This document shows, one piece after another, positions 19-13,501 of a stretch of DNA of 14,565 nucleotides (the stretch's first letter is position 1; every line of letters begins with the position of its first letter). Under the pieces are notes generated by a model, which saw only the letters and a list, made by a program, of their open reading frames with translations, searched no databases and was not told the DNA's origin. The DNA lies in the NCBI GenBank assembly GCA_964471755.1, contig CAYYJM010000097.1, positions 1-14,565 on the forward strand, given 5' to 3'. This stretch comes from an uncultured Alcaligenaceae bacterium (lineage in GTDB: Bacteria; Planctomycetota; Planctomycetia; Gemmatales; Gemmataceae). Both the position numbers and the translations under genes were made by a program.

Positions 19-3000
19 TCAGGGCTCGCTGAGGATCGACGCGAAATCGATGTCCGTCCGAGAGTGCGGCGTGAATTGATCGGTGGCCGTCATCTGGCGG
101 TAGGCGTCCTTGCTGGCACTGCTGAGGTACTCCAACTGCGTCAGGAGGAGGTGAACTCGTTCGTGGTAGAAGATCACGTCCTCACCGCCTGGATGGCTGA
201 GGATCTCCTGACCTTCGAGGGCCTCCTCGGCCAGTTGCTGGAGTGCCTCACCCGCAGAGCTGTTCGGCCGCTCCAGAACGACCAGTTCCTGGACCGCGAC
301 GACACCACTGGACTGGTTCGCCGGCCGGCGCGGAGTGGCCTGCAGGTCTGGTTCGGCCTTCTGAAGGCAGACTTCCACCTCGCCCAGGCGGAGGCTGTTC
401 GAGGTCGTCTGCTGCAAGAACAGGTCGGCGACGCTGGTCTCGGCCAGGTGACCGTTCGCGAAGCGACTGGCCACCTCTAGCAAGCTGTCCTGCACTCCGC
501 GCAGGGGCGTGTTGGAGAGACAGACATTCACCAGGGCCTGGTATTTCTCGCGGATCATGGCCTCGATCTGGTGGTCCAGTTCGAGCAACTGGTCGGGGCC
601 GATCTCAGCGACGATCTTCTCCAGGGCCTCGCTCAGACTCTTGCAGCCTCCGGGCAGGAGGATGCGACCCGCTTCCGGACGCAGGCCGGTCCCCTGGGCG
701 CTGAAGTTGGCCGCGACCCGGCCGGGATGGCTGCTACTGATCACCGGCGTGCCCAGCGCTTCGAGGCTGCGCAGCAGCTCTCCGAGGCGGACTCGACAGA
801 AGTTGACCTCACGGAGTTCGTCGGAAAGATGGCCGCGCAGGGCCAGGAACGTCTGGGAGATCCGGTGCAAGATCAGGCTCTGCAAGCGCACCTTGGGATA
901 GGCACGCAGGATGGTGATCAGCTGATCGGGAGTGTAGTTGAGCTGCTTGCCACGACCGGCCAGGATCTCCTGGAGGGTGTTGTAGCCGTTCTTCGCCTGG
1001 AGGTCAAAATCCTTGCCGAGCGGTTCGTGGTGTTGCAGGATCTGTTCCAGCTGTGCCAGCAGTTGCCGGATGGCTTCCTCGGCCCCGGCCAGGCGGAACT
1101 CCGGCTCCTCCAGCAGGCGGACGGCGATCTCGGTCAGTTTCTGGCTCCACTCGTTCATCAACGACTCGGCCACCGTACGCAGGTAGGTGTCGAAGAGACT
1201 CGACTGGACGTGGAGAGTCTCCTCGCTCGGTTTGCCGAGCAGGCGTTCGAGTTCCTCGACCACCGGCTGCAGTTCGTCGGGCGGGATGTCTGCGGCCGTC
1301 ACCTGGCCCCAGCGTTTGGCCGGGACCGAAGACGCGGCGCGCAGCTGGCGAACCAGGGGCTCGACCACGGCCAGGAGTGCCGTTTCCGGGTCCTTGCCGA
1401 CCTGCTCACGCAACCGATCCTGAAGGCGTTCGAGGAAGGACTCGACCCCGAGATCGCGACGCTGCCATTGTTCCTTGACGACGCTCGTGACGGCTCCGAG
1501 GATCGGCTTGCTATCCTTGCTCATCCAGCGCACGACCAGTTGCATGCACAGGTGGCGAGCGGCCTCGCGGAGCAGTTCACGGCGCGGCCAGGAAAGCCGG
1601 TGCAGGCCGAAGGTCTGAGCGTAGAGTCCGCGTTCGTTCCAGGGCGGACCCGGCAAGCCGGCCCGGCCCAGATCGGCGACCCGACCCAGCGGCGTGCCCA
1701 GATCGCGGAACAGCATCTGGCCGGTCATGTCCTGCAGCTCGCGCGTGCGGACTTCCTCACTCTCGTCCGGCAACGGTAAGAGGATGGTCCGGACGAAGGG
1801 CGGTTCGCCATCGGAGAGGGGAGTTTCGCGTTCGTGGTAGCGGCCGGTGAAGACCGTTCCCGGTGTGGCGAAGTAGCGCAATTCCGTGAGGGCGGCAAAG
1901 GTGTTGCTCCGACGCAGGCGCTCGTCCCAGTTCTCGGGTCCGGGCCGGCCGCGCCGGGAATCGGGAACGAGGAGAACGGCGACGATGTCGGGTTGCTCAA
2001 ACCCGCGCTGTCGGATCAAGGAGCGAAGGACGTAGGCCAGATCGAGAAACATGCCCGAGCCGGTTCCGCCGGCCAGGTTGGCGATCAGGTAGACGCGGGG
2101 CCGATTGGTGCGCAGCCCACAGCCGGTTTCGCTCGCGGCTCGTTGCAGGGCGGCCGGGTCCAGGATGGCGTCCAGCTCGGCGGCCAGGCGGTGAAGGATG
2201 AGCCGGTAATTGTCGCAGAAGGCGAGCCGGCCCAGGGCACGGACGCCGGTGGTCACCTGCGAGCGCGGGATGCGATAGAGCATCTGCTGCGGAATCCACG
2301 TCTCCAGGCTCGGCCGACCTTCGCGCGGTTTGAGGTAGTGGCTGGGCCGATTGAGCGGAGCCAGGAGGACCTCGTTGCTGGACAGGGCCGGCCCGGACTT
2401 GCCCTGGGTCGCCGTCCGGGTGACATCCGGATCGGTGTCGAGCAGAAGAAGCTTCAAGCTGGGGAGGGCGTCGAGGCCACCGAACGACTCGACGAGCCGC
2501 TCACGCAGGCGGCGCAGGATGCCCAGTCCGCTCTGACCCAGACCGATGACCAGGCCGGGGAACAGACAGCCGTCGCCCTTGATCTCTGGCACGGGCTTGC
2601 GCGGTTGATTCCCCGCGCTGCCCGTCAGGGGGGCAGATCGGTGAGCGGCGGTCGCCTGCGCCTCGACGCTCCGCAGTGGGTGGGTGGTCCCCGGGCCGGA
2701 GTCGGGCGGAGAGGACGGACGGTTCGCGCCTGCGATTCGTGTCGAGTCGCTCGGCACGATGGCTGCGGGCTCCGGTCGTGATTCCGCCAGTGTGCCCGTG
2801 GTGGGGACTTCCGAACGAAGCGAGGCCGACGGCTCTCCTTCCTTCAGAAGCTGGACCATTTCCATGCAGGTAGGGAAACGATCCGCTGGCGTCTTGGCGA
2901 GTGCCCGCAGGATGATCGGTTGCTCCCACGAAGGCAGCGTCGCGACGTTCGGCTGACCCTGGAGGTGTTGCAGGATCAACTGGCGGATGTTCGAGCCGGA

Positions 3001-3648
3001 GAAAGGACGCTGGCCGGTGAGCAGTTCCTGGTAGCAGATCGCCAGGCTGTACTGATCGCTGTGTCGGCTGACGATGCCGTCGAACGTTTCGGGAGCGGCG
3101 TAGACGGGCGTGATGCCGCCGGTGACCTTGGTTTCGAGCCCTTCGAGATCCTTGACCAGGCCGAAGTCCGCCACCTTGACGTGGTTGTGGACGAGGAAGA
3201 GATTCTGTGGCTTGATGTCCAGGTGCTGCAACTGGTACAGGCCGTTCATCAGATCGAGGGCCTCGGCCGTCTCCGCCAGATAGCCGAGCAGTTCGTCGCG
3301 GGGGATGCCGGGCAGTCCCTGAGCGCGGCACTCCTTGAAGCGGTCCCAGAGGTTGCGATCGGCCAACTCCATGACGATGAGGAGCTGGCCGTTGATGATG
3401 TCGTAGCGTTCCAGCGACAGGATGTAGGGATGGCGAACGGTCTTGACGCGCGCGAGGGCCTTGAGTTCCTGCTCGGCGCGTTCACCGTCGTCGGTACTCT
3501 GGAGGTCGCCGTAGACGAACTTGATGGCCTTGTGCAGACCGCCGGGGGCCTCGCACTTCCAGACCTCGCCAAAGCCGCCGCCGCCCAGTCGCTCGATGAG
3601 GCGATAGCCAGGAAGCGGTTCGGCGTTGAATTCCAGGCGGGCCGTCAT
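19..3648 (-). CDS. Multidomain protein: N-terminal Hanks-type Ser/Thr protein kinase, Pro/Ser-rich linker, tubulin/FtsZ-superfamily GTPase-like domain, ~500-aa alpha-helical C-terminal region
   Basis: 1209-aa ORF, ATG start at 3648-3646 preceded by GGAGAG SD 8 nt upstream. Kinase motifs: GGGGFGEV (G-loop), AIKF (VAIK Lys), HLDIKPQN (catalytic loop), DFG, AAPE. Tubulin/FtsZ motifs: VIGLGQSGLGIL (T1-like Gly loop, aa ~366-378) and LIANLAGGTGSGMFLDLAYVLR (tubulin signature GGGTGSG plus H4-like helix, aa ~521-542). No internal stops; codon usage consistent with neighbours. Confidence 0.85.
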   Translation of the reverse strand: MTARLEFNAEPLPGYRLIERLGGGGFGEVWKCEAPGGLHKAIKFVYGDLQSTDDGERAEQELKALARVKTVRHPYILSLERYDIINGQLLIVMELADRNLWDRFKECRAQGLPGIPRDELLGYLAETAEALDLMNGLYQLQHLDIKPQNLFLVHNHVKVADFGLVKDLEGLETKVTGGITPVYAAPETFDGIVSRHSDQYSLAICYQELLTGQRPFSGSNIRQLILQHLQGQPNVATLPSWEQPIILRALAKTPADRFPTCMEMVQLLKEGEPSASLRSEVPTTGTLAESRPEPAAIVPSDSTRIAGANRPSSPPDSGPGTTHPLRSVEAQATAAHRSAPLTGSAGNQPRKPVPEIKGDGCLFPGLVIGLGQSGLGILRRLRERLVESFGGLDALPSLKLLLLDTDPDVTRTATQGKSGPALSSNEVLLAPLNRPSHYLKPREGRPSLETWIPQQMLYRIPRSQVTTGVRALGRLAFCDNYRLILHRLAAELDAILDPAALQRAASETGCGLRTNRPRVYLIANLAGGTGSGMFLDLAYVLRSLIRQRGFEQPDIVAVLLVPDSRRGRPGPENWDERLRRSNTFAALTELRYFATPGTVFTGRYHERETPLSDGEPPFVRTILLPLPDESEEVRTRELQDMTGQMLFRDLGTPLGRVADLGRAGLPGPPWNERGLYAQTFGLHRLSWPRRELLREAARHLCMQLVVRWMSKDSKPILGAVTSVVKEQWQRRDLGVESFLERLQDRLREQVGKDPETALLAVVEPLVRQLRAASSVPAKRWGQVTAADIPPDELQPVVEELERLLGKPSEETLHVQSSLFDTYLRTVAESLMNEWSQKLTEIAVRLLEEPEFRLAGAEEAIRQLLAQLEQILQHHEPLGKDFDLQAKNGYNTLQEILAGRGKQLNYTPDQLITILRAYPKVRLQSLILHRISQTFLALRGHLSDELREVNFCRVRLGELLRSLEALGTPVISSSHPGRVAANFSAQGTGLRPEAGRILLPGGCKSLSEALEKIVAEIGPDQLLELDHQIEAMIREKYQALVNVCLSNTPLRGVQDSLLEVASRFANGHLAETSVADLFLQQTTSNSLRLGEVEVCLQKAEPDLQATPRRPANQSSGVVAVQELVVLERPNSSAGEALQQLAEEALEGQEILSHPGGEDVIFYHERVHLLLTQLEYLSSASKDAYRQMTATDQFTPHSRTDIDFASILSEP
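1549..2565 (-). other. Tubulin/FtsZ-like GTPase domain (aa ~362-700 of the 19..3648 protein)
   Basis: T1-like GLGQSG loop and exact tubulin signature motif AGGTGSGM followed by a helix resembling tubulin H4; domain boundaries approximate. Confidence 0.65.
2839..3606 (-). other. Ser/Thr protein kinase catalytic domain (aa ~15-270 of the 19..3648 protein)
   Basis: All Hanks subdomain motifs present in order (GxGxxG, K of AIK, HxDxKPxN, DFG, APE). Confidence 0.85.
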
Positions 3649-3656
3649 GAGGCCGG

Positions 3657-3662
3657 CTCTCC
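3657..3662 (-). promoter_or_regulatory. Shine-Dalgarno-like GGAGAG for kinase/tubulin-like gene
   Basis: Reverse complement of ctctcc at 3657-3662 gives GGAGAG 8 nt upstream of ATG (3648). Confidence 0.4.
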
Positions 3663-3796
3663 AGGTTCAGGTAGCACGACTAGCCCGGGACGACGGACCG
3701 GGGGCGTGAAAGACTCGCGCAACTATAGGTCGCGGTTGAGACGGCCGCAAATTCAGGCCAGCGAGAAAGTCCCCCGGCGAGCGACAGACAGATACA

Positions 3797-4954
3797 ATGG
3801 CAGCAATCCGGAGGGACCGTGTCGTGACTCTGTACGCGCTGTCGATCAAGCAACCGTGGGCCGCCCTGCTCGTGCAGGGCCGCAAGACGATCGAGGTGCG
3901 CCGCTGGACCACGCGCCGGCGGGGGCTGGTCCTGATCCACGCCGCCCGGGTGCCGGACGCGCGGCCGGAAGGCTGGCGGCACGTCGGCCCGGACCTGGAG
4001 TCGGTCGCGCGCCTCAACGGCGGCATCCTCGGCGTGGCCGTCCTTCGCGACGTACTGACCTACCGCACGTCGGCCGGGTTCGTGGCGGACCAGGCGAAGC
4101 ACTTCAACGAACCGGGCTGGTTCGAGGAATCGGGCCTGTACGGACTGGTGTTCGCGCAGGCGGCACGGGTGCCGTTCTATCCGTTCACGGCACAGGTGCG
4201 GTTCTGCCGGGTCGAGGGATTTCCGATGGCGAGCCTGCCGACTGAGTTCCGCGCCCTGGCCGCCGTCGCGGATCGCAGGACGGGGAGCCGGCTGCTGGTG
4301 AGCGTTCGCTCGGCGGCCGAGGCGCGCGCGGCGATCGCCGGCGGCTGTGATCTGCTCGACGCCAAGGAGCCGACTGCCGGGCCGCTGGGTGCCGTCACGC
4401 CGGCGGTCCTGGCGGACATCCTGGCCGAGGCCGGTGGCGTGCCCGTCAGCGCCGCCCTGGGGGAATTGCCATCGTCCGGCCCGCTGCTGGGCGTGCCGAC
4501 CGGGGTGACGTACGTCAAGATCGGCCTGGCCGGCTGGGGCCAGCGCGACTGGCGACGCCGCCTGGCCGAGGTGCGGTCGCCGCGTCTGGTGGTCGCCGCG
4601 TATGCCGATCATGTGCGAGCCGGTTCGCCGACGCCGGAAGCGCTGCTGGAGGCGGCCATCGACCTGCAGGCGGCCGCGTTTCTGATCGACACCTGGACGA
4701 AGGATGGTGGCGACCTGCTCGGAGCCGTGGGCCGGGGTCGGCTGGCGGCCCTCGTCGCACGGGCGCGATCCGGCGCGATGCCGATCGCGCTGGCCGGATC
4801 GCTGACCGCCCCGACGATCGCGGCCCTGGGCTTCCTGGCACCGGACTGGTTCGCCGTGCGCGGCGCGGCGTGCGAGGGTGGACGGGGCGGCGTGGTTTCC
4901 GCCGAGCGGGTGCGCGATCTGACCCGGTTGCTGCACGGCGACACGGAGACGTAG
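3797..4954 (+). CDS. Fusion protein: N-terminal ASCH (PUA-like) domain + C-terminal MfnB-like (DUF556/COG1891, (5-formylfuran-3-yl)methyl phosphate synthase family) TIM-barrel aldolase domain
   Basis: ASCH-like N-terminus: LYALSIKQPWAALLVQGRKTIEVRRW. C-terminal half aligns motif-by-motif to archaeal MfnB: LLVSVRSAAEARAAIAGGCDLLDAKEPTAGPLGA (Schiff-base Lys region DxK), YVKIGLAG, VVAAYADHVRAG, ALAGSL, VRGAACEGGRG. Alternative start GTG at 3824 is in frame and has a GGAGG SD 8 nt upstream; the ATG at 3797 lacks an SD. Confidence 0.8.
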   Translation: MAAIRRDRVVTLYALSIKQPWAALLVQGRKTIEVRRWTTRRRGLVLIHAARVPDARPEGWRHVGPDLESVARLNGGILGVAVLRDVLTYRTSAGFVADQAKHFNEPGWFEESGLYGLVFAQAARVPFYPFTAQVRFCRVEGFPMASLPTEFRALAAVADRRTGSRLLVSVRSAAEARAAIAGGCDLLDAKEPTAGPLGAVTPAVLADILAEAGGVPVSAALGELPSSGPLLGVPTGVTYVKIGLAGWGQRDWRRRLAEVRSPRLVVAAYADHVRAGSPTPEALLEAAIDLQAAAFLIDTWTKDGGDLLGAVGRGRLAALVARARSGAMPIALAGSLTAPTIAALGFLAPDWFAVRGAACEGGRGGVVSAERVRDLTRLLHGDTET

Positions 4955-4972
4955 CCCCTCCGCACCGCTCGC

Positions 4973-6061
4973 TCAGGCCGTCGCCGGGGTCTTCCATCGG
5001 AGCCGATACTGTGCCGGCAGGACGTAGAGCCAGAGCAGGAGGACGGCTCCGGCCGCGAACATCAGGACGCTGCCGTACGCCTCGAAGCCGACCGGCCGGA
5101 CGTCGGCCCGGAGCAACTCGTTGAGCGAGCGATGGATGGCGTAGCCCATCATCATCACCGCCATCACCTGGCCGTCGCGTGTCTTGAACGGCGAGTAGGC
5201 CAGCAGCAGCAGGAACAGCAGGAACATGCTGACCGTCTCGTACAGCTGCGTCGGATGCAGGCCGAGGCTGCCGGGAACGCAGACGACCGGAGCCGGCTGA
5301 CCACGCACCGTCAGTGTCAGCGTCCGCTGATCGCGCGGCCAGAGACGCGGATCGAACAGGGCTCGGGTCAGTTCGTCCACGCTGCGGACGTCGCGGTCGC
5401 CGACCTTCTCGATGATCTGCCCGGAACGCAGACCGGCGGCCTGATCGATGCGGACGCCGCCGGTCACTTGCTGTTCTGGCGGAGCGACCGTGAAGCCGGC
5501 CGCGGTCTGGATGCCGGTGCCGATGAGTTCCTGCGTGGCCGGGGCTCCGAGCGGAAACGACACGGCCAGGACGGGAGCCTCGACGGCGGGCACCTGGCCA
5601 TAGCAGCAGCCGTTGCAGAAGCAGCCGATCCGGCCCAGAGCGATGCCCAGGACCAGGGCGGGAGCGAGAACGTCGGCCACCTTGCCCGTGGTGATGCCGT
5701 GCTTGCGCAGCACGAACACGTAGTGGACCAGGTAGCCGAGGAAGCCGCCGATCAGCGAGCCGTAGAGGATGATGCCGCCGTCCCAGATACGCGGCAGCTT
5801 GTAGAGGAAGTCCCAGACGTCGGCGACGTGATCCTGCATGAGCAGGTAGGAGATCCGCGCCCCGAGCAGACCGCCGATGAACAGGTAGATGGTCAGATCC
5901 TGGATGAATTCCTTCTTGATGCCGGCCTTCTCGGCCCGCCGACCGGCCAGCCAGGAACAGAGGAGAAAGGCGATGAAGAGCATGACCCCGAAGCCGTAGA
6001 TCGGGACGCCATCGGGGAACGTCTCGCTCTTGATCGGGATGCGGAAGAGGACCGGGTACAT
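4973..6061 (-). CDS. lgt: Prolipoprotein diacylglyceryl transferase (Lgt) with extended periplasmic insertion
   Basis: 362 aa. N-terminal Lgt pattern (YGFGVMLFIAF...GARISYLL), signature GRIGCFCNGCCYG (Lgt G-x-GN-x-NGE-like loop), HPTQLYE signature, C-terminal TM helices. ~110 aa between the glycine loop and HPTQLYE versus ~45 aa in E. coli Lgt. Confidence 0.85.
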   Translation of the reverse strand: MYPVLFRIPIKSETFPDGVPIYGFGVMLFIAFLLCSWLAGRRAEKAGIKKEFIQDLTIYLFIGGLLGARISYLLMQDHVADVWDFLYKLPRIWDGGIILYGSLIGGFLGYLVHYVFVLRKHGITTGKVADVLAPALVLGIALGRIGCFCNGCCYGQVPAVEAPVLAVSFPLGAPATQELIGTGIQTAAGFTVAPPEQQVTGGVRIDQAAGLRSGQIIEKVGDRDVRSVDELTRALFDPRLWPRDQRTLTLTVRGQPAPVVCVPGSLGLHPTQLYETVSMFLLFLLLLAYSPFKTRDGQVMAVMMMGYAIHRSLNELLRADVRPVGFEAYGSVLMFAAGAVLLLWLYVLPAQYRLRWKTPATA

Positions 6062-6300: not shown

Positions 6301-7404
6301 TCACCCGATCTCGACCACCGCCTTGCCCAGGACCTCCCATCGTGGCGTGACACCCAGGCCGGGAGACGTACTCGCGGCCAGCCGACCATTCTGTCTCCGG
6401 GGCGCGCCCTCGGCGTTGGAGACGGTAACGTAACTGTTGAAGTCCGTCGAGGTGAACAGGAACTCCGGCGGCGTGCTGTGAGCCAGGTGCGCGATCGCTG
6501 CCGTGACGATGTCACCGCCCCAGCTGTCCTCCAGCGTCATGGCCAGGCCGAGCGAGACGCACAGATCGCGAGCCTGTCGTGCCTTCGTCAGCCCGCCGAA
6601 CTTGCTGATCTTGATGTTGACCACGTCCATCGCCCGGTCGGCATGGCCGCGCAGCAGCACGTCCACCGAATCGATGTTCTCGTCGAGGACGAATGGATGA
6701 TCCGTGTGACGCCGTACGGTCAGGCACTCCTCGTACGTCCGGCACGGCTGCTCGATGTACACGTCCACGTCGCGCACCGCTCGGACGACTCGCAGGGCCT
6801 CGTGCATCAGCCAGCCGGTGTTGGCGTCGGCGACGAGCCGATCACCGGGCTGTAACTTCGCGGCCACCTGGTGAATGCGCTGGACATCCACGTCCGGGTC
6901 GCCGCCGACCTTGAGCTGAAAGCGGCGGTAGCCCTCGGCCCGGTAGCCAGCGACACGCTCGGCCATCGCCTCGGGAGCCTCCTGCGAGATGGCTCGATAG
7001 AGACCGAAATCCTCGCCGTAGCGGCCGCCGAGCAGGACACAGACCGGCTGACCGGTCGCCTGGCCGAGCAGATCCCAGCAGGCCATGTCGAGGCCGGACT
7101 TGACGTAGGCATGCCCCTGGAGGGCGGCGTCCATCCGGCGATTGAGTTTGCCGAGCTGGGTGGGATCTTCGCCGAGCAGGTGCGGCCCGAGTTCGCGCAG
7201 ACCGGCCCGCACCCCGGCGGCGTAGGCCGGCAGGTAGAACGGGCCAAGCGGACAGACCTCGCCATGACCGACGAGGCCGGTGTCCGTCTCGACGGCGATG
7301 ACGGTGCTGTCGAAGACGGTGATGGCCTTGCCGCCGGACCACTTGTAGCTCCCCTCGGCCAGGGGCAACTCGACACGGTAGGCACGGATACGGCTGATCT
7401 TCAT
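6301..7404 (-). CDS. Enolase-superfamily enzyme, mandelate racemase/muconate lactonizing enzyme (MR/MLE) family (racemase/epimerase/dehydratase; exact substrate unknown)
   Basis: 368 aa by the ORF track (GTG at 7407, then ATG at 7404). Metal ligands in canonical MR/MLE spacing: DANTGW, IEQPC, LDENI. Conserved [13 protein letters not shown] motif (catalytic Lys at end of 6th strand). Second-strand motif FQLKVGG. Start overlaps hflK stop (GTGATG). Confidence 0.85.
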
Positions 7405-8348
7405 CACGGCTTCTCCATCCTCGGCAGCAGATCGTCGATCAGGCCGAGTTGGCCCGTCTCCTGCAACTGGCGTAGCACACGCGTGCGCTCCTCACGCCAG
7501 AGTTGCTCCAGGTAATTCGGATTCTTCACGATCGCCTCGACCAGCACGGCGACGCGGGCCGCAAACCGCTCGGCGTTCCGGCGAGCCAGTTCACGCTGCG
7601 TGTAAGCGTAGCTCGCGGCCGATTTCTCGATCCGCTGGGCCTCCGCGTGGGCGGCCTCGACCTGAGAGAACTGCTCCTGCCGCGCTCGCGTCTCCTGCGT
7701 GTGGATGTTCGCCTGGGCGCGCGAGACGCTGTCGAACGCCTGCTTGACCTGCTCCGGCGGAGCCAGGTGGACGACGCGCACATCGATCACCGCAATCCCC
7801 AGTCGATACGGATCGAGCCGACTGGCCAGATCGCCGACGAGGAAGGTCGGCAGCGTGACCTTGCCATCAAGCAGAACGTCATCGACGTTCCGCCCCGCGA
7901 CCCATCCGGCCAGGCTCGACTCGGTAACCCGACCCAGAAGCGGCTCGACCCGCTGGCGTGCGAGGACGTAGTCCTCCAGGCCGTCCTCTGGCACCTTGAA
8001 CGAGACGACGACGCGGACATCGATCAGGTTGTGATCACCGGTGAGCAGCTGTCCCGGTGGATTCGCCGACTCGCCGCGACGCCGGGCGGCCTCCCGGGCC
8101 TCCTCGGTGTTCAGGTCTGGATCGAAGCCGACAGCGAGGGTCTGGATGCGATCGACCGGCACGCGATCGACCTGATCGATGCCCCACGGCCAGCCGATGC
8201 GGAGGCCCGGTCCCGGCTTGAACGGCAGGAACGCACCGAATCGGCGAACGACGGCCCGCTCGCCCGGCCGCACCTCGACGATGCCGGTCAGCAGCCAGCC
8301 GACCAGGACGACGCCGAGCAGGAGGAGGAAGATTCGGCGCACGCTCAC
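7404..8348 (-). CDS. hflK: HflK-like SPFH/band-7 membrane protein
   Basis: 314 aa. N-terminal TM helix ([15 protein letters not shown]) then [16 protein letters not shown]...[13 protein letters not shown] and [39 protein letters not shown], matching E. coli HflK core (ERGVVTRFGK...; LLDVNFQAARPPEEVKAAFDDAIAARENEQQYIREAE). GTG start at 8348 overlaps hflC stop by 4 nt. Confidence 0.85.
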
Positions 8349-9322
8349 GACCCGCCTTTCTTGATCGGCTCCGGCGCGGGCGGCGTCGGCGGCTCGGTCA
8401 GCGTCTTGAAGCGTTTGGTCGAGAGCAGCAGGACCGACTTGCCGGTCGAGAGGAGGCTCTTGAGGTCTTCGAGTTCCTTGAGGAAGGCGTAGAACTCGGG
8501 TCGGCGGAGCTGCGTCTCGTTGAGGATACGGTCGGCGGTGGCATCGGCCTTGCCGCGAGCGGCGATGGCCTGGCCCTCGGCGTCGGCCTTGAGCTTGCCG
8601 ACTTCCAGTTCGGTCTCGCTGCGGATGTTCGCGGCCAGGCGTTCGCCGCGGCTCTCGTACTCGGCCGCCTTGCGATCGCGTTCGCTGATGATCCGCTCGA
8701 AGATGGCCGGCCGAACCGCGGGCGGATGGTTCGACCGCCGGAGCCGGACATCGACGACCTCGATGCCGTACTCGGTCCTGGCTCGCTCGCGCAGTCCGGG
8801 GCCGCCGGCCGATGGCTGATCGAGCAGCGTCTGGCGAAGGCGATCGCGTTCGCGATCGACCTTGCCGGGTTCGGTGCTGATGAGGTCGGCGAGTTCCATC
8901 CGGCCGATGGCGGCACCGAGTGCGTTGTTGATGTCACGATCGAGCAGGGCCTGGGCTCCGGTGACGGTGCCGACCTTGCGGATAAAGCGATCGACGTCGT
9001 CGCGGGTGGCGATCCGCCAGCAGACGTAGGCGTCGATGGTGAGGGTCTGATCGATGGTGCCGCGCTCCCGATCACGGGTGAGCAGCTCGGCTCCGGGCAG
9101 GTCGAGGTACTGCAGTCGGCGGTCGATGCGCTGGACGCTCTCGATGGGCCAGGGCCATTTCAGGTGGAGGCCGGCGTCGCTGGACTCGCTCCCGTCGTAG
9201 GTCGCGACGTGAGCGCCGAACTGTGTGCGATAGACGAACTCGCCGGCGTCCACGGTGAACAGCGACGAGCGCACCAGGGCGATGAGGAGAATGAGGCCGA
9301 AGATTCCGAGTAGCGTTCGCAT
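8345..9322 (-). CDS. hflC: HflC-like SPFH/band-7 membrane protein
   Basis: 325 aa. TM helix (LLGIFGLILLIALV) then FTVDAGEFVYRTQFGA...GLHLKWPWPIESV, GIEVVDVRLRRSNHPPAV, and C-terminal RPEFYAFLKELE, matching E. coli HflC (FVVKEGERGITLRFGK; GIEVVDVRIKQINLP; DPDFYAFIRSL). GAGGG SD 8 nt upstream of ATG. Confidence 0.85.
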   Translation of the reverse strand: MRTLLGIFGLILLIALVRSSLFTVDAGEFVYRTQFGAHVATYDGSESSDAGLHLKWPWPIESVQRIDRRLQYLDLPGAELLTRDRERGTIDQTLTIDAYVCWRIATRDDVDRFIRKVGTVTGAQALLDRDINNALGAAIGRMELADLISTEPGKVDRERDRLRQTLLDQPSAGGPGLRERARTEYGIEVVDVRLRRSNHPPAVRPAIFERIISERDRKAAEYESRGERLAANIRSETELEVGKLKADAEGQAIAARGKADATADRILNETQLRRPEFYAFLKELEDLKSLLSTGKSVLLLSTKRFKTLTEPPTPPAPEPIKKGGS

Positions 9323-9334
9323 GGACAGATTCCC

Positions 9335-10039
9335 TCACGCGATCCACAAATCGCTGCACGCCTGCTCGCAGCTCTGCTCCAGATTCAACGGCACAACCTG
9401 ATCCTCGCTCAACCACAGCGGCAGCGTCGGCAGCGGTTGACCGACGTTCAGGGCGTGCGACCAGGCTTCCAGCAGTGTCCGCTTGCCGCGCCGGACCCAT
9501 CGACACGACGCGGCGTAAATATCCGGGGGCGGATCGCCGTGCGACGGGTCAGCGTGCCCGAGGAAGGCGAGCAACTCGACGTACAGGTTGAACTGCCGCA
9601 CGGTCACCAGATCGACGATGCTCACGGCGACGCCCTTCTGGAGCAGAGCGGCACACTTGGCGACGAAGACGTTGCGATGCTCGGGTCGGTCCAGGTTCGC
9701 GGGGCTGACGATCTCGATGGCGGCGACCAGAAGCCGGCTGCGGGTAGCGTCGAACACACGCACGCCATACTCGTCGTAGATGGGCAGCGTCGTCTCGACG
9801 CACAGACTGGGGGGCGTCGGTGCCCAGTCTGCCGCGCTGGTGTCGGTCTCATCGACCGGCTCGACCTGCGAGATGGCGTTCTCCCGGTGGAACCCGGAAT
9901 GCACCCGTGGCTCCGCGACGTGGCCAGACGGAAGTCGTTTCCGCAACTGCTGGACGATGACCGCAGGCCAGCCTCCAAAGAAGCCCTCCCACGAAGCGAT
10001 CGTGTCCACCGGCGGTCGGAAGTGATCGCGTAGCGGCAT
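9335..10039 (-). CDS. DUF4058 / Uma2-like (PD-(D/E)XK-fold) family protein
   Basis: 234 aa. Core block LLVAAIEIVSPANLDRPEHRNVFVAKCAALLQKGVAVSIVDLVTV resembles the DUF4058/Uma2 consensus (D...IEVLSP.NK...gR..Y..K......g..L.EIDLL). Strong GGAGGAG SD 9 nt upstream of ATG, located inside the 3' end of the ATPase gene; ATG lies 3 nt after the ATPase stop. Confidence 0.6.
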   Translation of the reverse strand: MPLRDHFRPPVDTIASWEGFFGGWPAVIVQQLRKRLPSGHVAEPRVHSGFHRENAISQVEPVDETDTSAADWAPTPPSLCVETTLPIYDEYGVRVFDATRSRLLVAAIEIVSPANLDRPEHRNVFVAKCAALLQKGVAVSIVDLVTVRQFNLYVELLAFLGHADPSHGDPPPDIYAASCRWVRRGKRTLLEAWSHALNVGQPLPTLPLWLSEDQVVPLNLEQSCEQACSDLWIA

Positions 10040-10042
10040 GGC

Positions 10043-13000
10043 TCACGGCTCCTCCGGCCGACGCGGCAACGACGGCATCACCGGCCGACGATCGAACGAG
10101 TCACCGCCCGGCAGCAGGCCCTTGCGCTGCTCGCCCAGGATCATCCAGAGTTGCAGCCAGCCCGGCAGGGCCACGTCGTCGATCAGAAACTTCTCGCGCA
10201 AGGCCAGGGCCGACGCGATCGCCTCGGACGCCAGTCGGAACTCCGTCAGGTACGCCTGCTGCTCCAGTCGATGCCGACGAGCCTCCTGCAACCACGACCA
10301 CGCCGCCTCCGGCTTCTCTCCGCCATCGACTCGAGCCCCGGCGGCCAGGAACAGGCCAACCTCGCTCGTCCACGATAGTGTCGATCGACTGTCATCGCGA
10401 CCGAAAAAGACCGTCTGCCGAGCCCGGGCCAGTCGCTCCTTCTCGTAGCTCTGCACCACGGCCTCGCTCACCCGCCGCAGCGAGCGGCCAAACTGGTCGG
10501 CCAGGTTGCGCGTCCGGGCGGCCTCCGCCTCGTTCTTCCGACGGTCGGCCCGCTCCATCGCCACGGCCACTCGATGGTACGCGCCAACCACCTCCGGCGG
10601 CGGATGCAGATCGTGCAGCGCCAGCCCCGTCACCTCCAGGCCAAGACCCGGCGAGCCAAACTCCGCCAGCCGGCCCTGAAGCCGGGTCAGGGCTTCGCCC
10701 TGGAACTCGCGACGATCCTGTGTCAGCAGACTCTCGAACGACCGACCAGCAACCAGCTCGCGGAAGACCGCCTCGGCACTGCCACGAACGACCGCCTCCG
10801 GATCGCCCACGTCGAACAGGTAGACACGCGGCTCCGTGATCCGGTAACGGATGGCCGCCTGGACCTCGATCAGGTTGCCGTCGCCCGTGATCATGACGGC
10901 CTCGTCCGGCAGCAGACGAATGCCCTCGCCGGAATGACCACTACTCCACGAACGGCCGTCGGCCAGGCCCCCCTCGGGGCGATCGACCCGGTAGCCGATC
11001 GCCACCGAGCGGATGCGATCGGGCTGCACCCGACGAACCGTCTCGATCGGCCAGGGCCAGCGCCAGTGCAGGCCCGGCGACAGGTCGGCGACCGGCTTGC
11101 CGAAACGCTGCACGATGCCGACCTCGTCGGACTGGATCGCGGTCAGACCCCAGAGCGGATAGATGACCAGCAGAAGCAGACCCAGCGTCGCCAGGATCGG
11201 CCGCCAGTGGTGCGTCACCCAGTGCAGGCCCTCTTCGAGGTTGAGGTACTTCTCCGTCCAGTCATTGACACCGGTCAGCCAGTGGCGGAAGCCGGCGTAC
11301 GTCCGGCTCTCCGGCTTCTCGAACCAGAGCAGCCGCATCGCGTTGAGCAGCACCGCGAGCGAGCCGAGTTGGTGGTAGAGGACGGCGGCCAGCGGCGACT
11401 GCTCGTACCAGGCCGCCGGAGCGAACAGCGGCCAGAGCCAGGAGGTCAGGACGACGCCGACGACGTTGACGACGATCGCGAACCAGAAGATGTTCTGGCC
11501 GATGATGGCGACCGTCTGCCGGGACAGCCGCACGAGCAGCGGCAGGTGACGGAGCGGATCACCCATGCAGACGACATCGCCGGTCTCGGCGGCGATGTCA
11601 GTGCCGGTGCCGCCGATGGCCAGGCCGACCGTGGCACGGGCCAGGGCCGGGGCGTCGTTGATGCCATCGCCGACCATCGCGACGCGCTTGCCCTCGGCCT
11701 CCCACGCCGCGACGAACTCGGCCTTCTGCGTGGGGAGAAGTTCGGCATGAACCTCGGCCAGGCCGAGCTGATCGGCGACGTTCCGGGCGACGGCAGCGCG
11801 GTCGCCGGTTAGCATGGCGACGCGGCCGATGCCCAGGCCGCGCAGTTCGGAGAGAACGTCGCTCGCCTCGTCGCGGACCCGGTCGCGGACGCCGAGGACG
11901 GCGATGACGTGCAGATCGCCAGGAATGCCAGGAGCCGGCTCACTCGTGGAGGCACCGCCGGGCTGGGCCTGGATCTGGGCCGACGTGGTCGGCTCGGCGA
12001 TGCTGCCCCGTGCCAGGAGCAGGGCCGTCTGACCGGCGGCGTCGAGTTCCCCCAGGGTCTTCAGGACCGCCTCGGGAAGAGCGACACCGAGTTCCTCCAG
12101 GAGCCGACGATTGCCGACGAGCAGGGTCGCCTCGCCAGCGACGGCCAGGATGCCGAGACCGGGATACGCCTGGAAGCGTTCGACCGTCGGCAGATCGAGG
12201 CCGCGCTTGCGCGCCTCGCCGACGAGCAGTTCGGCGAGAAGATGCTCGCTGCGCTGCTCGGCCGTCGCCGCCCAGGCGAGGAGTTCGGTTTCGGAATGCC
12301 CGCCCACCGGGACGATGCGGGCGAGTTCGAGCCGGCCCGCCGTCAGGGTGCCGGTCTTGTCGAAGGCGAAGGCATCGACCGTGGCGAGGCGTTCGAGGGC
12401 GGCCCCGCTCTTGATCAGGATGCCGGTGCCGGCGAGCCGTCCCAGCGCGGCGATGACGGCCGCTGGCGTCGCCAGGATCAGGGCACACGGGCAGGCGACG
12501 ACCAGGACCGACAGGGCCGGATAGGCGGCGATGCGGATCGCCTGCATCAGGGTGAAGCGCAGGCCCTCGCCGGGTCGGGTCCAGCCGCTCCAGACGGCGT
12601 AGACGCCGACGAGAAACGTCACCAGGGCCAGGCCGAGAACGATCGGCAGGAACCAGCGTGCGAGCCGGTCGGCGGTGCGTTCCAGTGGGGCCTTGTTCTG
12701 CAAGGCCCGGGCGGTCCACTCGACGACCTGGCCGGCGACGGTATGCTCGGCGACCCGGCGGGCCTCGATCGTCAGGGCACCGGTCTGGTTGAGGCAACCG
12801 GCCAGGATCTCGTCGCCGGGACCGCGATCGACCGGCAGACTCTCGCCGGTCAGGGCGCTGGTATCGACGGACGATCGACCGTCACGGACGACGCCATCGC
12901 AGGGAATCCGACCGCCCGGCTTGACGACGACCACGTCGCCGACCTGAAGCTCGGCAATGAGGATGCGCTCCTCCTGCCCGTCGCGCAGACGCCAGCAGCG

Positions 13001-13501
13001 GCGCGGGAAGACCTCGGCGAGCTGGCGGATCGCATGCTGGGTTCGCTCGAAGGTGACACTCTCCAGACACTCACCGAGCATGCCGATGAAGACGATCTCG
13101 GCGGCGACGAGCGGTTCTTGCAGCAGGATGGCGGCGATGCAGGCGAGGGCCAGGGCGAGATCGGCTCCGAGTCGGCCCTGCAAGAGCGAGTCGATGGAGC
13201 CATAGAGGGCGCGAGCGCCGCCGAGGATGGCGGCGAGCAGAGCGAGACGGTAGCCGGCGTAGGTGTTGGGCCAGCTCGGCAGACCCAGGCCGAAGCCGTT
13301 GAACCTGGCGGCGACGTAGACCCACAGGTCGGCGACGATGAGCAGACCGATGAGGGCCGTCAGCAGGTAGAGCGTAAGACGGCTCTCCTGCTCCAACCGC
13401 GAATCAGCGTAGGAAATCTCGCGGTGCATGACAGATCGACCAGGAGGGAGAATCGGATCGGGCTCGACTGTCAGGCTACGGGCGATGGCGAAGTCAGTCA
13501 A
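10043..13501 (-). CDS. P1B-type (heavy-metal, CPC-motif) P-type ATPase fused in frame to an extra TM helix and a C-terminal HflK-like SPFH/band-7 domain
   Basis: 1152-aa uninterrupted ORF. ATPase motifs: TGES (A-domain), ACPCAL (TM6 CPC), DKTGTLT (phosphorylation site), SEHLLA (HP-like), MLTGD, MVGDGINDAPAL, final TM pair ending LLNAMRLL (aa ~670-725). Then linker, TM helix HWRPILATLGLLLLVIYPLW (aa ~765-784) and SPFH domain: EVGIVQRFGKPVADLSPGLHWRWPWPIETV ... GLEVTGLALHDLHPPPEVVGAYHRVAVAMERADRRKNEAEAAR (HflK-like). No N-terminal CxxC metal-binding domain. Start is TTG per the ORF track; an alternative ATG sits at aa 25 (nt 13429). Confidence 0.85.
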   Translation of the reverse strand: MTDFAIARSLTVEPDPILPPGRSVMHREISYADSRLEQESRLTLYLLTALIGLLIVADLWVYVAARFNGFGLGLPSWPNTYAGYRLALLAAILGGARALYGSIDSLLQGRLGADLALALACIAAILLQEPLVAAEIVFIGMLGECLESVTFERTQHAIRQLAEVFPRRCWRLRDGQEERILIAELQVGDVVVVKPGGRIPCDGVVRDGRSSVDTSALTGESLPVDRGPGDEILAGCLNQTGALTIEARRVAEHTVAGQVVEWTARALQNKAPLERTADRLARWFLPIVLGLALVTFLVGVYAVWSGWTRPGEGLRFTLMQAIRIAAYPALSVLVVACPCALILATPAAVIAALGRLAGTGILIKSGAALERLATVDAFAFDKTGTLTAGRLELARIVPVGGHSETELLAWAATAEQRSEHLLAELLVGEARKRGLDLPTVERFQAYPGLGILAVAGEATLLVGNRRLLEELGVALPEAVLKTLGELDAAGQTALLLARGSIAEPTTSAQIQAQPGGASTSEPAPGIPGDLHVIAVLGVRDRVRDEASDVLSELRGLGIGRVAMLTGDRAAVARNVADQLGLAEVHAELLPTQKAEFVAAWEAEGKRVAMVGDGINDAPALARATVGLAIGGTGTDIAAETGDVVCMGDPLRHLPLLVRLSRQTVAIIGQNIFWFAIVVNVVGVVLTSWLWPLFAPAAWYEQSPLAAVLYHQLGSLAVLLNAMRLLWFEKPESRTYAGFRHWLTGVNDWTEKYLNLEEGLHWVTHHWRPILATLGLLLLVIYPLWGLTAIQSDEVGIVQRFGKPVADLSPGLHWRWPWPIETVRRVQPDRIRSVAIGYRVDRPEGGLADGRSWSSGHSGEGIRLLPDEAVMITGDGNLIEVQAAIRYRITEPRVYLFDVGDPEAVVRGSAEAVFRELVAGRSFESLLTQDRREFQGEALTRLQGRLAEFGSPGLGLEVTGLALHDLHPPPEVVGAYHRVAVAMERADRRKNEAEAARTRNLADQFGRSLRRVSEAVVQSYEKERLARARQTVFFGRDDSRSTLSWTSEVGLFLAAGARVDGGEKPEAAWSWLQEARRHRLEQQAYLTEFRLASEAIASALALREKFLIDDVALPGWLQLWMILGEQRKGLLPGGDSFDRRPVMPSLPRRPEEP
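10046..11224 (-). other. C-terminal TM helix + SPFH/band-7 (HflK-like) domain (aa ~760-1152) of the fusion protein
   Basis: Shares the WPWPIE(S/T)V block with the adjacent HflC-like protein and the PPE(E/Q)V..A(F/Y) block with HflK. Confidence 0.75.
11312..13501 (-). other. P1B-ATPase core (aa 1-~730) of the fusion protein
   Basis: Complete set of P-type ATPase motifs; see the CDS entry. Confidence 0.8.

What the first reader, a model, noticed from the sequence alone, without database searches (positions are those of the whole stretch)
3797..4954. ASCH domain fused to an MfnB/DUF556-type furan-phosphate synthase
The C-terminal 220 aa match the archaeal methanofuran-biosynthesis aldolase MfnB at all conserved blocks, including the DxK Schiff-base region and VRGAACxGG. 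This is consistent with methylofuran/methanofuran cofactor synthesis for the H4MPT/Fhc C1 pathway known in Planctomycetes. The N-terminal 130 aa are an ASCH (PUA-like, usually nucleic-acid/nucleotide-binding) domain, an unexpected partner for a sugar-phosphate aldolase. It may bind a nucleotide-derived moiety or substrate. The real start may be GTG 3824 (good SD) rather than ATG 3797.
Basis: partly seen in the sequence, partly recalled or inferred. Interest (0 to 1): 0.6.

Follow-up and report, generated by a model that had tools for sequence, protein, structure and literature searches.

The report
ASCH domain fused to furan-cofactor synthase MfnB
This gene from a Gemmata-group planctomycete joins an intact ASCH (PUA-like, amidohydrolase-type) domain to the MfnB enzyme that builds the furan ring of the C1 cofactor methylofuran; in most relatives the two are separate overlapping genes, which makes the ASCH protein a candidate, still unproven, partner of cofactor synthesis.

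Summary

The four catalytic positions I recall for MfnB (Lys27 confirmed from a paper) are kept in 184/184 relatives. The ASCH GxKxxExR Lys/Glu/Arg motif is kept in 183/184. GTG 3824 is the likely start.

New here:
- The fusion is one state of a gene pair seen so far only in Gemmatales. 117 of the top 120 full-length homologues are fused.
- Of 75 neighbouring-gene (tblastn) loci holding both parts, 70 carry separate asch and mfnB genes, 51 with a 4-nt ATGA/GTGA overlap.
- Fused and split forms interleave on a crude tree.
- The window's junction is 2 nt shorter than a split relative's, which removes both stop and start.
- mfnE and mfnF homologues lie just downstream in 21/54 loci, but not in the window.

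The MfnB role is well supported. The role of the ASCH domain is inferred only. Its next-closest relatives are standalone archaeal proteins with no mfnB nearby, and 8 Gemmatales loci keep asch without mfnB. No paper found mentions the pairing. It is a new variant of a known kind, of moderate interest.

The parts
3824..4954 (+). Coding sequence of the ASCH::MfnB fusion protein (376 aa from GTG 3824; the longest ORF starts at ATG 3797, 385 aa). Residue numbers in this report use the 385-aa numbering.
   Evidence: ORF list and translation. NCBI protein P0001 is 100% identical and 376 aa. Homologue N-termini align at GTG 3824.
3811..3816 (+). Shine-Dalgarno-like GGAGGG, 7 nt upstream of GTG 3824
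   Evidence: Read directly from the sequence. It fits the start supported by homologues.
3824..4225 (+). ASCH (PUA-like beta-barrel) domain, aa 10-143, of the TRIP4/EOLA1/TthASCH 'GKER' type
3878..3901 (+). ASCH octapeptide G28-R-K30-T-I-E33-V-R35 (GxKxxExR), the predicted Lys/Glu/Arg catalytic centre. W21 (nt 3857-3859) aligns with TthASCH Tyr14.
   Evidence: Invariant in alignments A1 and A2. K/E/R are kept in 183 of 184 fused and split homologues. The positions map to TthASCH K23/E26/R28 through the alignment offset. These residues are essential for ac4C deacetylation in TthASCH, EOLA1 and TRIP4 ASCH (bioRxiv 10.64898/2026.02.27.708502).
4226..4288 (+). Inter-domain linker, aa 144-164, with a predicted helix at aa 149-160. 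It corresponds to the C-terminal tail of the standalone ASCH proteins of the closest split relatives. Its length varies (by up to about 60 residues) among fused homologues.
   Evidence: Alignments A1 and A2; secondary structure of the model.
4280..4291 (+). Fusion junction ACG GGG AGC CGG (T-G-S-R). In the split relative L087 the homologous stretch reads ACG GAA TGA overlapping ATG AGC CGG (stop and start sharing ATGA). The fused form is 2 nt shorter, which removes both stop and start and joins the frames.
   Evidence: DNA alignment of the window, L088 (fused) and L087 (split), with translations.
4289..4930 (+). MfnB-type 4-HFC-P synthase domain ((5-formylfuran-3-yl)methyl phosphate synthase; class I aldolase TIM barrel), aa 165-378
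   Evidence: Pfam PF04476 E 4.3e-50, full profile length. phmmer to MJ1099 4rc1 E 1.5e-21. Foldseek top hits 4rc1/4u9p. NCBIfam MfnB models are the best hits but score below their equivalog cutoffs.
4358..4366 (+). D188-A-K190, equivalent to MJ1099 Asp25 and Lys27 (the Schiff-base lysine)
   Evidence: Alignment to 4rc1. Kept in 184/184 homologues. Lys27 forms the Schiff base, and two Lys plus two Asp are essential (PMC6604932).
4517..4519 (+). K241, equivalent to MJ1099 Lys85
   Evidence: Alignment; 184/184 conserved.
4688..4702 (+). D298-T-W-T-K302, equivalent to MJ1099 Asp151...Lys155
   Evidence: Alignment; D298 and K302 are kept in 184/184.
4856..4882 (+). V354-RGAACEGG-362 block, equivalent to MJ1099 VRGAACKGG and including Arg215
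   Evidence: Alignment; R355 kept in 184/184.
19..3648 (-). Context: divergently transcribed Ser/Thr kinase + FtsZ-like (Tubulin_2) gene, a conserved neighbour of the ASCH gene
   Evidence: Pfam. Found divergent and within 1.5 kb upstream of asch in 71 of 81 Gemmatales loci.
3721..3752 (-). Context: conserved intergenic element. On the minus strand it reads TTGCGG-N17-TATAGT, a likely promoter of the kinase gene.
   Evidence: AACCATAGCT-N15-17-CGCAAAT recurs in about 40 loci at the same place. The consensus scan tool did not call it.

Best explanation
The gene encodes a two-domain protein made by in-frame fusion of two genes. In most Gemmatales these genes are separate but translationally coupled, in the order asch then mfnB with an ATGA overlap. 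The C-terminal domain is a bona fide MfnB-type enzyme. It should condense two glyceraldehyde-3-phosphate molecules, through a Lys190 Schiff base, into 4-(hydroxymethyl)-2-furancarboxaldehyde phosphate. That compound is the furan building block of methylofuran, the formyl carrier of the H4MPT-linked formaldehyde-oxidation pathway. The N-terminal domain is a catalytically intact 'GKER' ASCH domain, which by homology is a Lys/Glu-dependent amidohydrolase-type pocket for a planar acylated ring. In this order it has become a stoichiometric partner of MfnB, either co-translated or covalently joined. Shown: domain identities, intact active-site residues in both halves, and the conserved pair, coupling, recurrent fusion and cluster with mfnE/mfnF homologues. 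Inferred: that MfnB activity feeds methylofuran synthesis in this organism. Also inferred: that the ASCH domain acts in or on that pathway, for instance by binding or handing over the reactive formyl-furan product, or by deacylating an N-acylated aminomethylfuran intermediate, rather than only on RNA or nucleosides.
For: Domain identity. Active sites: MfnB D188/K190/K241/D298 kept in 184/184 and ASCH K30/E33/R35 in 183/184 fused and split homologues, so both halves are under purifying selection. Pairing: mfnB lies directly downstream of this ASCH subfamily in 65 of 73 loci with enough sequence. Of 70 split pairs, 51 share a 4-nt ATGA/GTGA overlap and 10 more have gaps of 30 nt or less. Fusion: 117 of the top 120 full-length hits are fused. 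Fused and split forms interleave on an NJ tree with at least 12 parsimony changes, and the window's clade is sister to a split pair. The junction differs from a split relative by a 2-nt indel at the ATGA. 4HFCP_synth is the only recurrent fusion partner seen in this ASCH subfamily. Pathway context: MfnE-like and MfnF-like (TIGR03123 above cutoff) genes lie convergent just downstream in 21 of 54 loci. In M. extorquens the MfnB/E/F homologues Orf22/21/9 are likewise clustered (PMC8141765). ASCH proteins of the GKER type, including TRIP4 ASCH, are active amidohydrolases that need the same Lys and Glu. A pTM of 0.77 for a two-domain chain hints at a defined mutual orientation.
Against: No experiment or co-occurrence profile ties ASCH to methylofuran. 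Eight Gemmatales loci keep asch, with the divergent kinase gene, but have no mfnB within 10 kb. The next-closest ASCH relatives (30-40% identity) are standalone proteins of DPANN archaea and Thaumarchaeota, and the two contexts examined have no mfnB. The family's ancestral role is therefore independent of this pathway. An ATGA overlap makes fusion mutationally easy, so recurrent fusion may be neutral. The linker length is very variable, which argues against a rigid interface. No known step of methanofuran or methylofuran synthesis needs an amidohydrolase. The MfnB domain scores well below NCBIfam equivalog cutoffs (116 against 304 bits). The window itself lacks mfnE, mfnF and any C1 gene. The tree is a crude NJ without support values.
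Confidence: 0.5

Rival explanations
1. Hitchhiking. The ASCH protein is an ordinary RNA or nucleoside N4-acetylcytidine deacetylase, like its TRIP4, EOLA1 and TthASCH relatives, with no role in cofactor synthesis. It merely shares an operon with mfnB in Gemmatales. Because the genes overlap by ATGA, small indels repeatedly fuse them, and the fusions are tolerated because both domains fold independently.
For: All 19 ASCH proteins tested, including GKER types, deacetylate ac4C in tRNA. The catalytic motif is intact here. The closest non-Gemmatales relatives are standalone in organisms without the pathway, with unrelated neighbours. Eight loci have asch without mfnB. A 2-nt indel is enough for fusion. 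The linker is variable.
Against: Adjacency of 89% holds across sequences only 45-60% identical. 73% of split pairs are translationally coupled. Large, old fused clades of up to 32 sequences persist. 4HFCP_synth is the only fusion partner seen. Together these suggest selection for equimolar co-production.
Confidence: 0.33
2. The ASCH protein works with the divergently transcribed Ser/Thr kinase + FtsZ-like (Tubulin_2) protein, for example as its substrate, regulator or co-regulated partner. On this view mfnB is the incidental neighbour.
For: The divergent kinase-Tubulin_2 gene lies within 1.5 kb upstream of asch in 71 of 81 loci, as often as mfnB lies downstream. It is still there in 7 of the 8 loci that lack mfnB.
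Against: The two genes are never fused or co-oriented. The conserved intergenic element reads as a promoter for the kinase gene alone. No known functional link exists. Ten loci lack the kinase gene but most of them keep asch-mfnB.
Confidence: 0.1
3. The C-terminal domain belongs to the PF04476 fold but has a different activity in Gemmatales (another aldolase or phospho-sugar reaction), so the protein has nothing to do with methylofuran.
For: NCBIfam MfnB equivalog models score 95-116 bits against cutoffs of 297-341. Identity to MJ1099 is only about 30%. MJ1099 was also crystallised with PRPP and is described as a methanofuran/methanopterin enzyme.
Against: All recalled essential residues are invariant in 184/184 homologues. 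The Pfam match covers the full profile at E 4e-50. MJ1099 is the best structural match. MfnE- and MfnF-like genes are adjacent in many relatives.
Confidence: 0.05
4. Artefact: the fusion is a frameshift error in the assembly that joined two overlapping genes.
For: The junction lies in a short G run (ACGGGGAGCC), and the split relative differs by only 2 nt.
Against: The identical protein occurs in a Logan assembly of run SRR36080964; it is not established that this is a dataset independent of the window's NCBI assembly. The same junction is present in a 71%-identical homologue from another sample. 117 distinct fused proteins exist in public data.
Confidence: 0.02

Closest known systems
MfnB / MJ1099 of Methanocaldococcus jannaschii (4-HFC-P synthase; PDB 4RC1, 4U9P) and its bacterial homologue Orf22 of Methylorubrum extorquens
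   Same: Same Pfam family over its full length and the same TIM-barrel fold. Conserved Asp25/Lys27/Lys85/Asp151 equivalents and the VRGAACxGG block. Clustered with MfnE and MfnF homologues in relatives, as Orf22/21/9 are in M. extorquens.
   Different: About 30% identity and below NCBIfam equivalog cutoffs. Carries, or is translationally coupled to, an N-terminal ASCH domain. That domain is absent from MJ1099 and is not mentioned for Orf22 in the papers I could read.
'GKER'-type ASCH domains: human TRIP4/ASC-1 ASCH (8YEW, 9KYK), EOLA1/CXorf40A (6KIR, 5Y7D) and Thermus TTHA0113 (2DP9)
   Different: Only 19-24% identity overall. Extra invariant residues (H48, D54, H102, N104) are shared with prokaryotic relatives but H48 is not in TRIP4. 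Here the domain is attached or coupled to a sugar-phosphate aldolase rather than to RNA/DNA machinery. Neither its substrate nor its nucleic-acid binding has been tested.
E. coli YqfB (N4-acetylcytidine amidohydrolase, 9KYF), a 'GKTR'-type ASCH
   Different: YqfB has Thr where this domain has Glu33, is smaller, and is more distant. It is a free-standing nucleoside-salvage enzyme.
Standalone archaeal ASCH proteins (DPANN, Thaumarchaeota), the nearest sequence relatives outside Gemmatales
   Same: 30-40% identity with the same invariant S, P, G, K, E, R and H positions.
   Different: They are always standalone at 120-150 aa, and the two contexts examined have no mfnB nearby. These organisms are not known to use methanofuran (my own knowledge).

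Membership tests
MfnB / 4-HFC-P synthase (Pfam PF04476, UPF0264) | Sequence match to the family profile above the curated threshold, over its full length | tested here: met
   171 bits against a cutoff of 22.4, profile positions 1-227 of 228.
MfnB / 4-HFC-P synthase (Pfam PF04476, UPF0264) | Schiff-base lysine (MJ1099 Lys27) plus the second essential Lys and two essential Asp | tested here: met
   K190, D188, K241 and D298 align to K27, D25, K85 and D151 and are kept in 184/184 homologues. The Lys27 role and 'two Lys, two Asp essential' come from PMC6604932. The identity of D25/K85/D151 is from my memory of Wang et al. 2015.
MfnB / 4-HFC-P synthase (Pfam PF04476, UPF0264) | TIM-barrel fold closest to MJ1099 | tested here: met
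   Foldseek ranks 4rc1/4u9p first, E 7e-17 to 1e-15, target TM 0.75-0.78.
MfnB / 4-HFC-P synthase (Pfam PF04476, UPF0264) | NCBIfam equivalog-level score (NF002575, NF002573) | tested here: not met
   116 and 95 bits against cutoffs of 304 and 341. The protein is a divergent member, so orthology-level naming is not guaranteed.
MfnB / 4-HFC-P synthase (Pfam PF04476, UPF0264) | Genomic association with other methanofuran/methylofuran genes (mfnE, mfnF) | tested here: inconclusive
   Absent from the window. Present directly downstream in 21 of 54 related loci, with NCBIfam MfnE, MfnF and TIGR03123 hits.
MfnB / 4-HFC-P synthase (Pfam PF04476, UPF0264) | Formation of 4-HFC-P from two GA-3-P | not testable with these tools
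   Needs an enzyme assay.
ASCH superfamily (Pfam PF04266), GKER subgroup | Profile match above threshold | tested here: met
   29.1 bits against a cutoff of 21.2, although only profile positions 1-57 of 103 are matched. The subfamily profile hits TRIP4 ASCH at E 4e-11.
ASCH superfamily (Pfam PF04266), GKER subgroup | PUA-like beta-barrel fold | tested here: met
ASCH superfamily (Pfam PF04266), GKER subgroup | GxKxxExR octapeptide with catalytic Lys and Glu | tested here: met
   G28-R-K30-T-I-E33-V-R35, kept in 183/184 homologues. Essentiality is shown in homologues.
ASCH superfamily (Pfam PF04266), GKER subgroup | N4-acetylcytidine (or other amide) hydrolase activity, or nucleic-acid binding | not testable with these tools
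   Needs biochemical assays.

The most novel reading that the evidence does not exclude
The ASCH module is a previously unrecognised component of methylofuran biosynthesis or maintenance in Gemmatales. It would be a small-molecule enzyme or carrier that uses the Lys/Glu/Arg pocket on a planar furan intermediate. Examples are capturing or handing over the reactive 5-formylfuran product of MfnB, or deacylating N-formyl or N-acetyl aminomethylfuran species. This would extend the ASCH fold from nucleic-acid and nucleoside chemistry to cofactor metabolism. It could also fill one of the still unassigned steps of the bacterial pathway; the MfnC and MfnD equivalents are unknown.
Probability: 0.25. Interest if true: 0.75.

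Novelty: new variant of a known kind. Interest (0 to 1): 0.5.

Why it matters
Methylofuran and methanofuran synthesis in bacteria still has unassigned steps. The transaminase is unidentified and most strains lack the Tyr-Glu ligase homologue MfnD (PMC8141765, PMC5020050). The cofactor has never been characterised in Planctomycetes, whose H4MPT genes are central to arguments about the origin of methylotrophy and methanogenesis. A conserved, translationally coupled and repeatedly fused partner of MfnB is a concrete, testable candidate for a new pathway component. It could also be a new, non-RNA role for the ASCH fold, which is only now being recognised as an amidohydrolase family. If instead the link is neutral, the locus is a clean natural example of how ATGA-overlapping genes flip between split and fused states.

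Tried and rejected
- Window neighbours: no C1 or cofactor genes were found, only kinase-FtsZ-like, Lgt, an enolase-superfamily gene, SPFH genes and a P-type ATPase.
- Literature: no paper links ASCH with methanofuran, MfnB or DUF556. The 'ASCH' hits were author names or unrelated, and the 'DUF556' hits were DUF5565 and similar. Kalyuzhnaya 2005 (PMC1151760) is not held.
- Foldseek against AFDB50, intended to find fused architectures with organism names, could not run because the library is not installed.
- The listing of cluster members gave no organism names.
- The promoter/terminator scan of 3550-5150 found nothing. The conserved intergenic element was found by k-mer counting instead, and it reads as the kinase gene's promoter, not a shared operator.
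- The first tree attempt with Biopython timed out and was replaced by a numpy NJ.
- Other fusion partners of this ASCH subfamily: only 4HFCP_synth recurs. Longer 'ASCH-only' proteins have no second domain and are probably over-extended start calls. One has a sub-threshold AAA_15 hit.
- My recollection that the M. extorquens MfnB homologue is 'orf19' was wrong. Hemmann 2021 gives Orf22.
- The genome-contig scan used exact peptide patterns (KQPWAALL, KTIEVRRW), so its all-Gemmatales result is biased towards close relatives. I could not test other planctomycete orders or proteobacterial methylotrophs directly.

Full report

**Start codon.** The identical NCBI protein (P0001) has 376 aa and starts at GTG 3824. 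The three nearest homologues, fused or split, start M/V-TLY(A/G)LS at the same place, and more distant ones start 2-5 residues before YALS. A GGAGGG lies 7 nt upstream. GTG 3824 is the likely start.

**Active sites.**
- Aligned to MJ1099, D188/K190 correspond to Asp25/Lys27, K241 to Lys85, D298 to Asp151 and R355 to Arg215.
- Lys27 forms the Schiff base, and two Lys plus two Asp are essential (PMC6604932). The specific residue numbers other than Lys27 come from my memory of Wang et al. 2015.
- In the ASCH half, the octapeptide G28-R-K30-T-I-E33-V-R35 is the canonical GxKxxExR.
- Using the alignment offset to TTHA0113, K30, E33, R35 and W21 fall on TthASCH Lys23, Glu26, Arg28 and Tyr14.
- A 2026 preprint shows that the Lys and Glu are essential for N4-acetylcytidine deacetylation in TthASCH, EOLA1 and TRIP4 ASCH, and that all 19 ASCH proteins tested have this activity (bioRxiv 10.64898/2026.02.27.708502).
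- Across 184 homologous units (122 fused, 62 split), the MfnB residues are kept in 184/184 and the ASCH K/E/R in 183/184.

Neither half is degenerate.

**The fusion is one state of a gene pair.**
- A search with the whole protein returned 1,969 hits, and 117 of the top 120 contain both domains in one chain of 359-446 aa. Where named, they come from Gemmataceae.
- A search with the N-domain alone returned at least 120 standalone ASCH proteins of 133-175 aa at 54-69% identity.
- On their contigs, each of these genes examined is followed immediately by a standalone 237-241-aa 4HFCP_synth gene.
- A pattern scan of GTDB species genomes gave 80 loci, almost all labelled Gemmatales, Gemmataceae or unclassified Planctomycetota; those named to genus are Fimbriiglobus, Gemmata and Zavarzinella. 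A few labels (Alcaligenaceae, Singulisphaera) look like mislabels.
- Over 85 non-redundant loci, mfnB lies directly downstream of asch in 65 of 73 with enough sequence.
- Of the 75 loci holding both parts, 70 are split. Among the split pairs, 51 share a 4-nt ATGA/GTGA overlap, 10 have gaps of 30 nt or less, and 5 loci are fused.
- On a crude NJ tree of concatenated domains, fused and split forms interleave with at least 12 parsimony changes. The window's small fused clade (window, P0001, P0002) is sister to a split pair, P0123/P0026.
- At the DNA level, the split relative L087 reads ...ACG GAA TGA overlapping ATG AGC CGG CTG. The window and the 71%-identical L088 read ...ACG GGG AGC CGG CTG. 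This is 2 nt shorter, which removes stop and start and joins the frames.

The same junction in an independent sample, and more than 100 other fused sequences, exclude an assembly artefact.

**Pathway context.** The window has no C1 or cofactor gene. Its neighbours are a divergent kinase-FtsZ-like gene, Lgt, an enolase-superfamily gene, SPFH genes and a P-type ATPase. In 21 of 54 related loci, however, the pair is followed by a convergent AA_kinase gene and a Hydantoinase_A gene. The only NCBIfam hit of the first is MfnE (E 1e-14). The second passes the cutoff of TIGR03123, 'probable H4MPT-linked C1 transfer pathway protein', and hits MfnF at E 4.5e-48. In M. extorquens the MfnB, MfnE and MfnF homologues (Orf22, Orf21, Orf9) are likewise clustered (PMC8141765). 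Planctomycetes are established carriers of H4MPT/MF-linked genes (PMC5020050). The assignment of the C-terminal domain to methylofuran furan-ring synthesis is therefore well supported, though not shown for this organism.

**What the ASCH half does is open.**
For a functional link with MfnB:
- 89% adjacency holds at 45-60% sequence identity.
- Translational coupling is predominant.
- Fused clades are large and persistent.
- 4HFCP_synth is the only recurrent fusion partner in this ASCH subfamily.
- The catalytic residues are intact.

Against a link:
- Eight loci keep asch but have no mfnB within 10 kb; seven of them also keep the kinase neighbour.
- The divergent kinase-Tubulin_2 gene is linked to asch as often (71/81) as mfnB is.
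- The next-closest ASCH relatives (30-40% identity) are standalone proteins of Nanoarchaeota, Woesearchaeota, Altiarchaeota and Nitrosopelagicus, and the two contexts examined have unrelated neighbours.
- The linker varies by up to about 60 residues.
- An ATGA overlap makes fusion mutationally cheap.
- No known methanofuran step needs an amidohydrolase.

My best reading (about 0.5) is that ASCH has been recruited in Gemmatales as a stoichiometric partner of MfnB. It may handle the reactive planar formyl-furan product or an acylated aminomethylfuran. The main rival (about 0.33) is that it is an ordinary ac4C deacetylase sharing an operon, with neutral fusions.

**Comparison with what is known.** The C-terminal half is a divergent member of the MfnB family. 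It meets the fold, the catalytic residues and the Pfam threshold, but not the NCBIfam equivalog scores. The N-terminal half is a member of the GKER subgroup of ASCH, meeting the fold, the motif and the Pfam threshold. Public annotations simply call the fusion 'UPF0264' or '(5-formylfuran-3-yl)methyl phosphate synthase'. I found no paper that mentions the ASCH partner. I classify it as a new variant of a known kind.

**Limits.**
- The genome scan used exact peptide patterns, so absence outside Gemmatales is not established.
- AFDB50 was unavailable.
- Whole-genome co-occurrence could not be computed.
- The tree has no support values.
- Domain-interface geometry could not be inspected.

Noticed in passing
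window 19..3648 (-); also L002, L004, L006, L087, L088 and about 70 other loci: A 1209-aa Ser/Thr kinase fused to an FtsZ-like Tubulin_2 (PF13809) domain is transcribed divergently from the ASCH gene. The arrangement is kept in 71 of 81 Gemmatales loci, at 36-64% identity for nearly all full-length matches. It also holds in 7 of the 8 loci where mfnB is absent. PMC9871819 notes that planctomycete Tubulin_2 proteins carry an N-terminal kinase. The reason for the conserved divergent pairing with asch is unknown.
   Followed up: partly
window 3721..3752 (intergenic); the same position in about 40 related loci: A conserved bipartite element, AACCATAGCT-N15-17-CGCAAAT, appears in the window as AACTATAGGT...CCGCAAAT. 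On the minus strand it reads TTGCGG-N17-TATAGT, a sigma-70-like promoter for the kinase gene. Fimbriiglobus-like loci carry a different motif (TTGGCAAA). The consensus scan tool did not call it.
   Followed up: partly
window 10043..13501 (-), 8345..9322 (-), 7404..8348 (-), 9335..10039 (-): A P-type ATPase (E1-E2_ATPase plus HAD hydrolase) carries a C-terminal SPFH/Band_7 domain (aa 789-994). On the same strand it is followed by a DUF4058 gene and two further SPFH/Band_7 genes. This is an unusual transporter-SPFH fusion and cluster.
   Followed up: no
window aa 48, 54, 102, 104 of the ORF (nt 3938-3940, 3956-3958, 4100-4102, 4106-4108): Beyond the GKER motif, H48, D54, H102 and N104 are kept in at least 182 of 184 Gemmatales sequences. 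H48 is invariant and H102 nearly so in the archaeal relatives, whereas TRIP4 lacks H48. These residues could form a second, possibly metal-binding, site. Their spatial proximity was not checked.
   Followed up: no
L056 (between asch at 9212-9604 and mfnB at 10717-11415); L009, L027, L033, L045: In L056 about 1 kb is inserted between asch and mfnB. In L009, L027, L033 and L045 the mfnB match is split across two frames, which may mean frameshifted or pseudogenised mfnB, or sequencing errors.
   Followed up: no
The N-domain search listed only standalone ASCH proteins. It did not list the fused homologues, although one of them (P0002) is 71% identical overall. The word-index search seems to favour candidates of similar length, so counts of fused versus split proteins from these lists are not comparable.
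   Followed up: no
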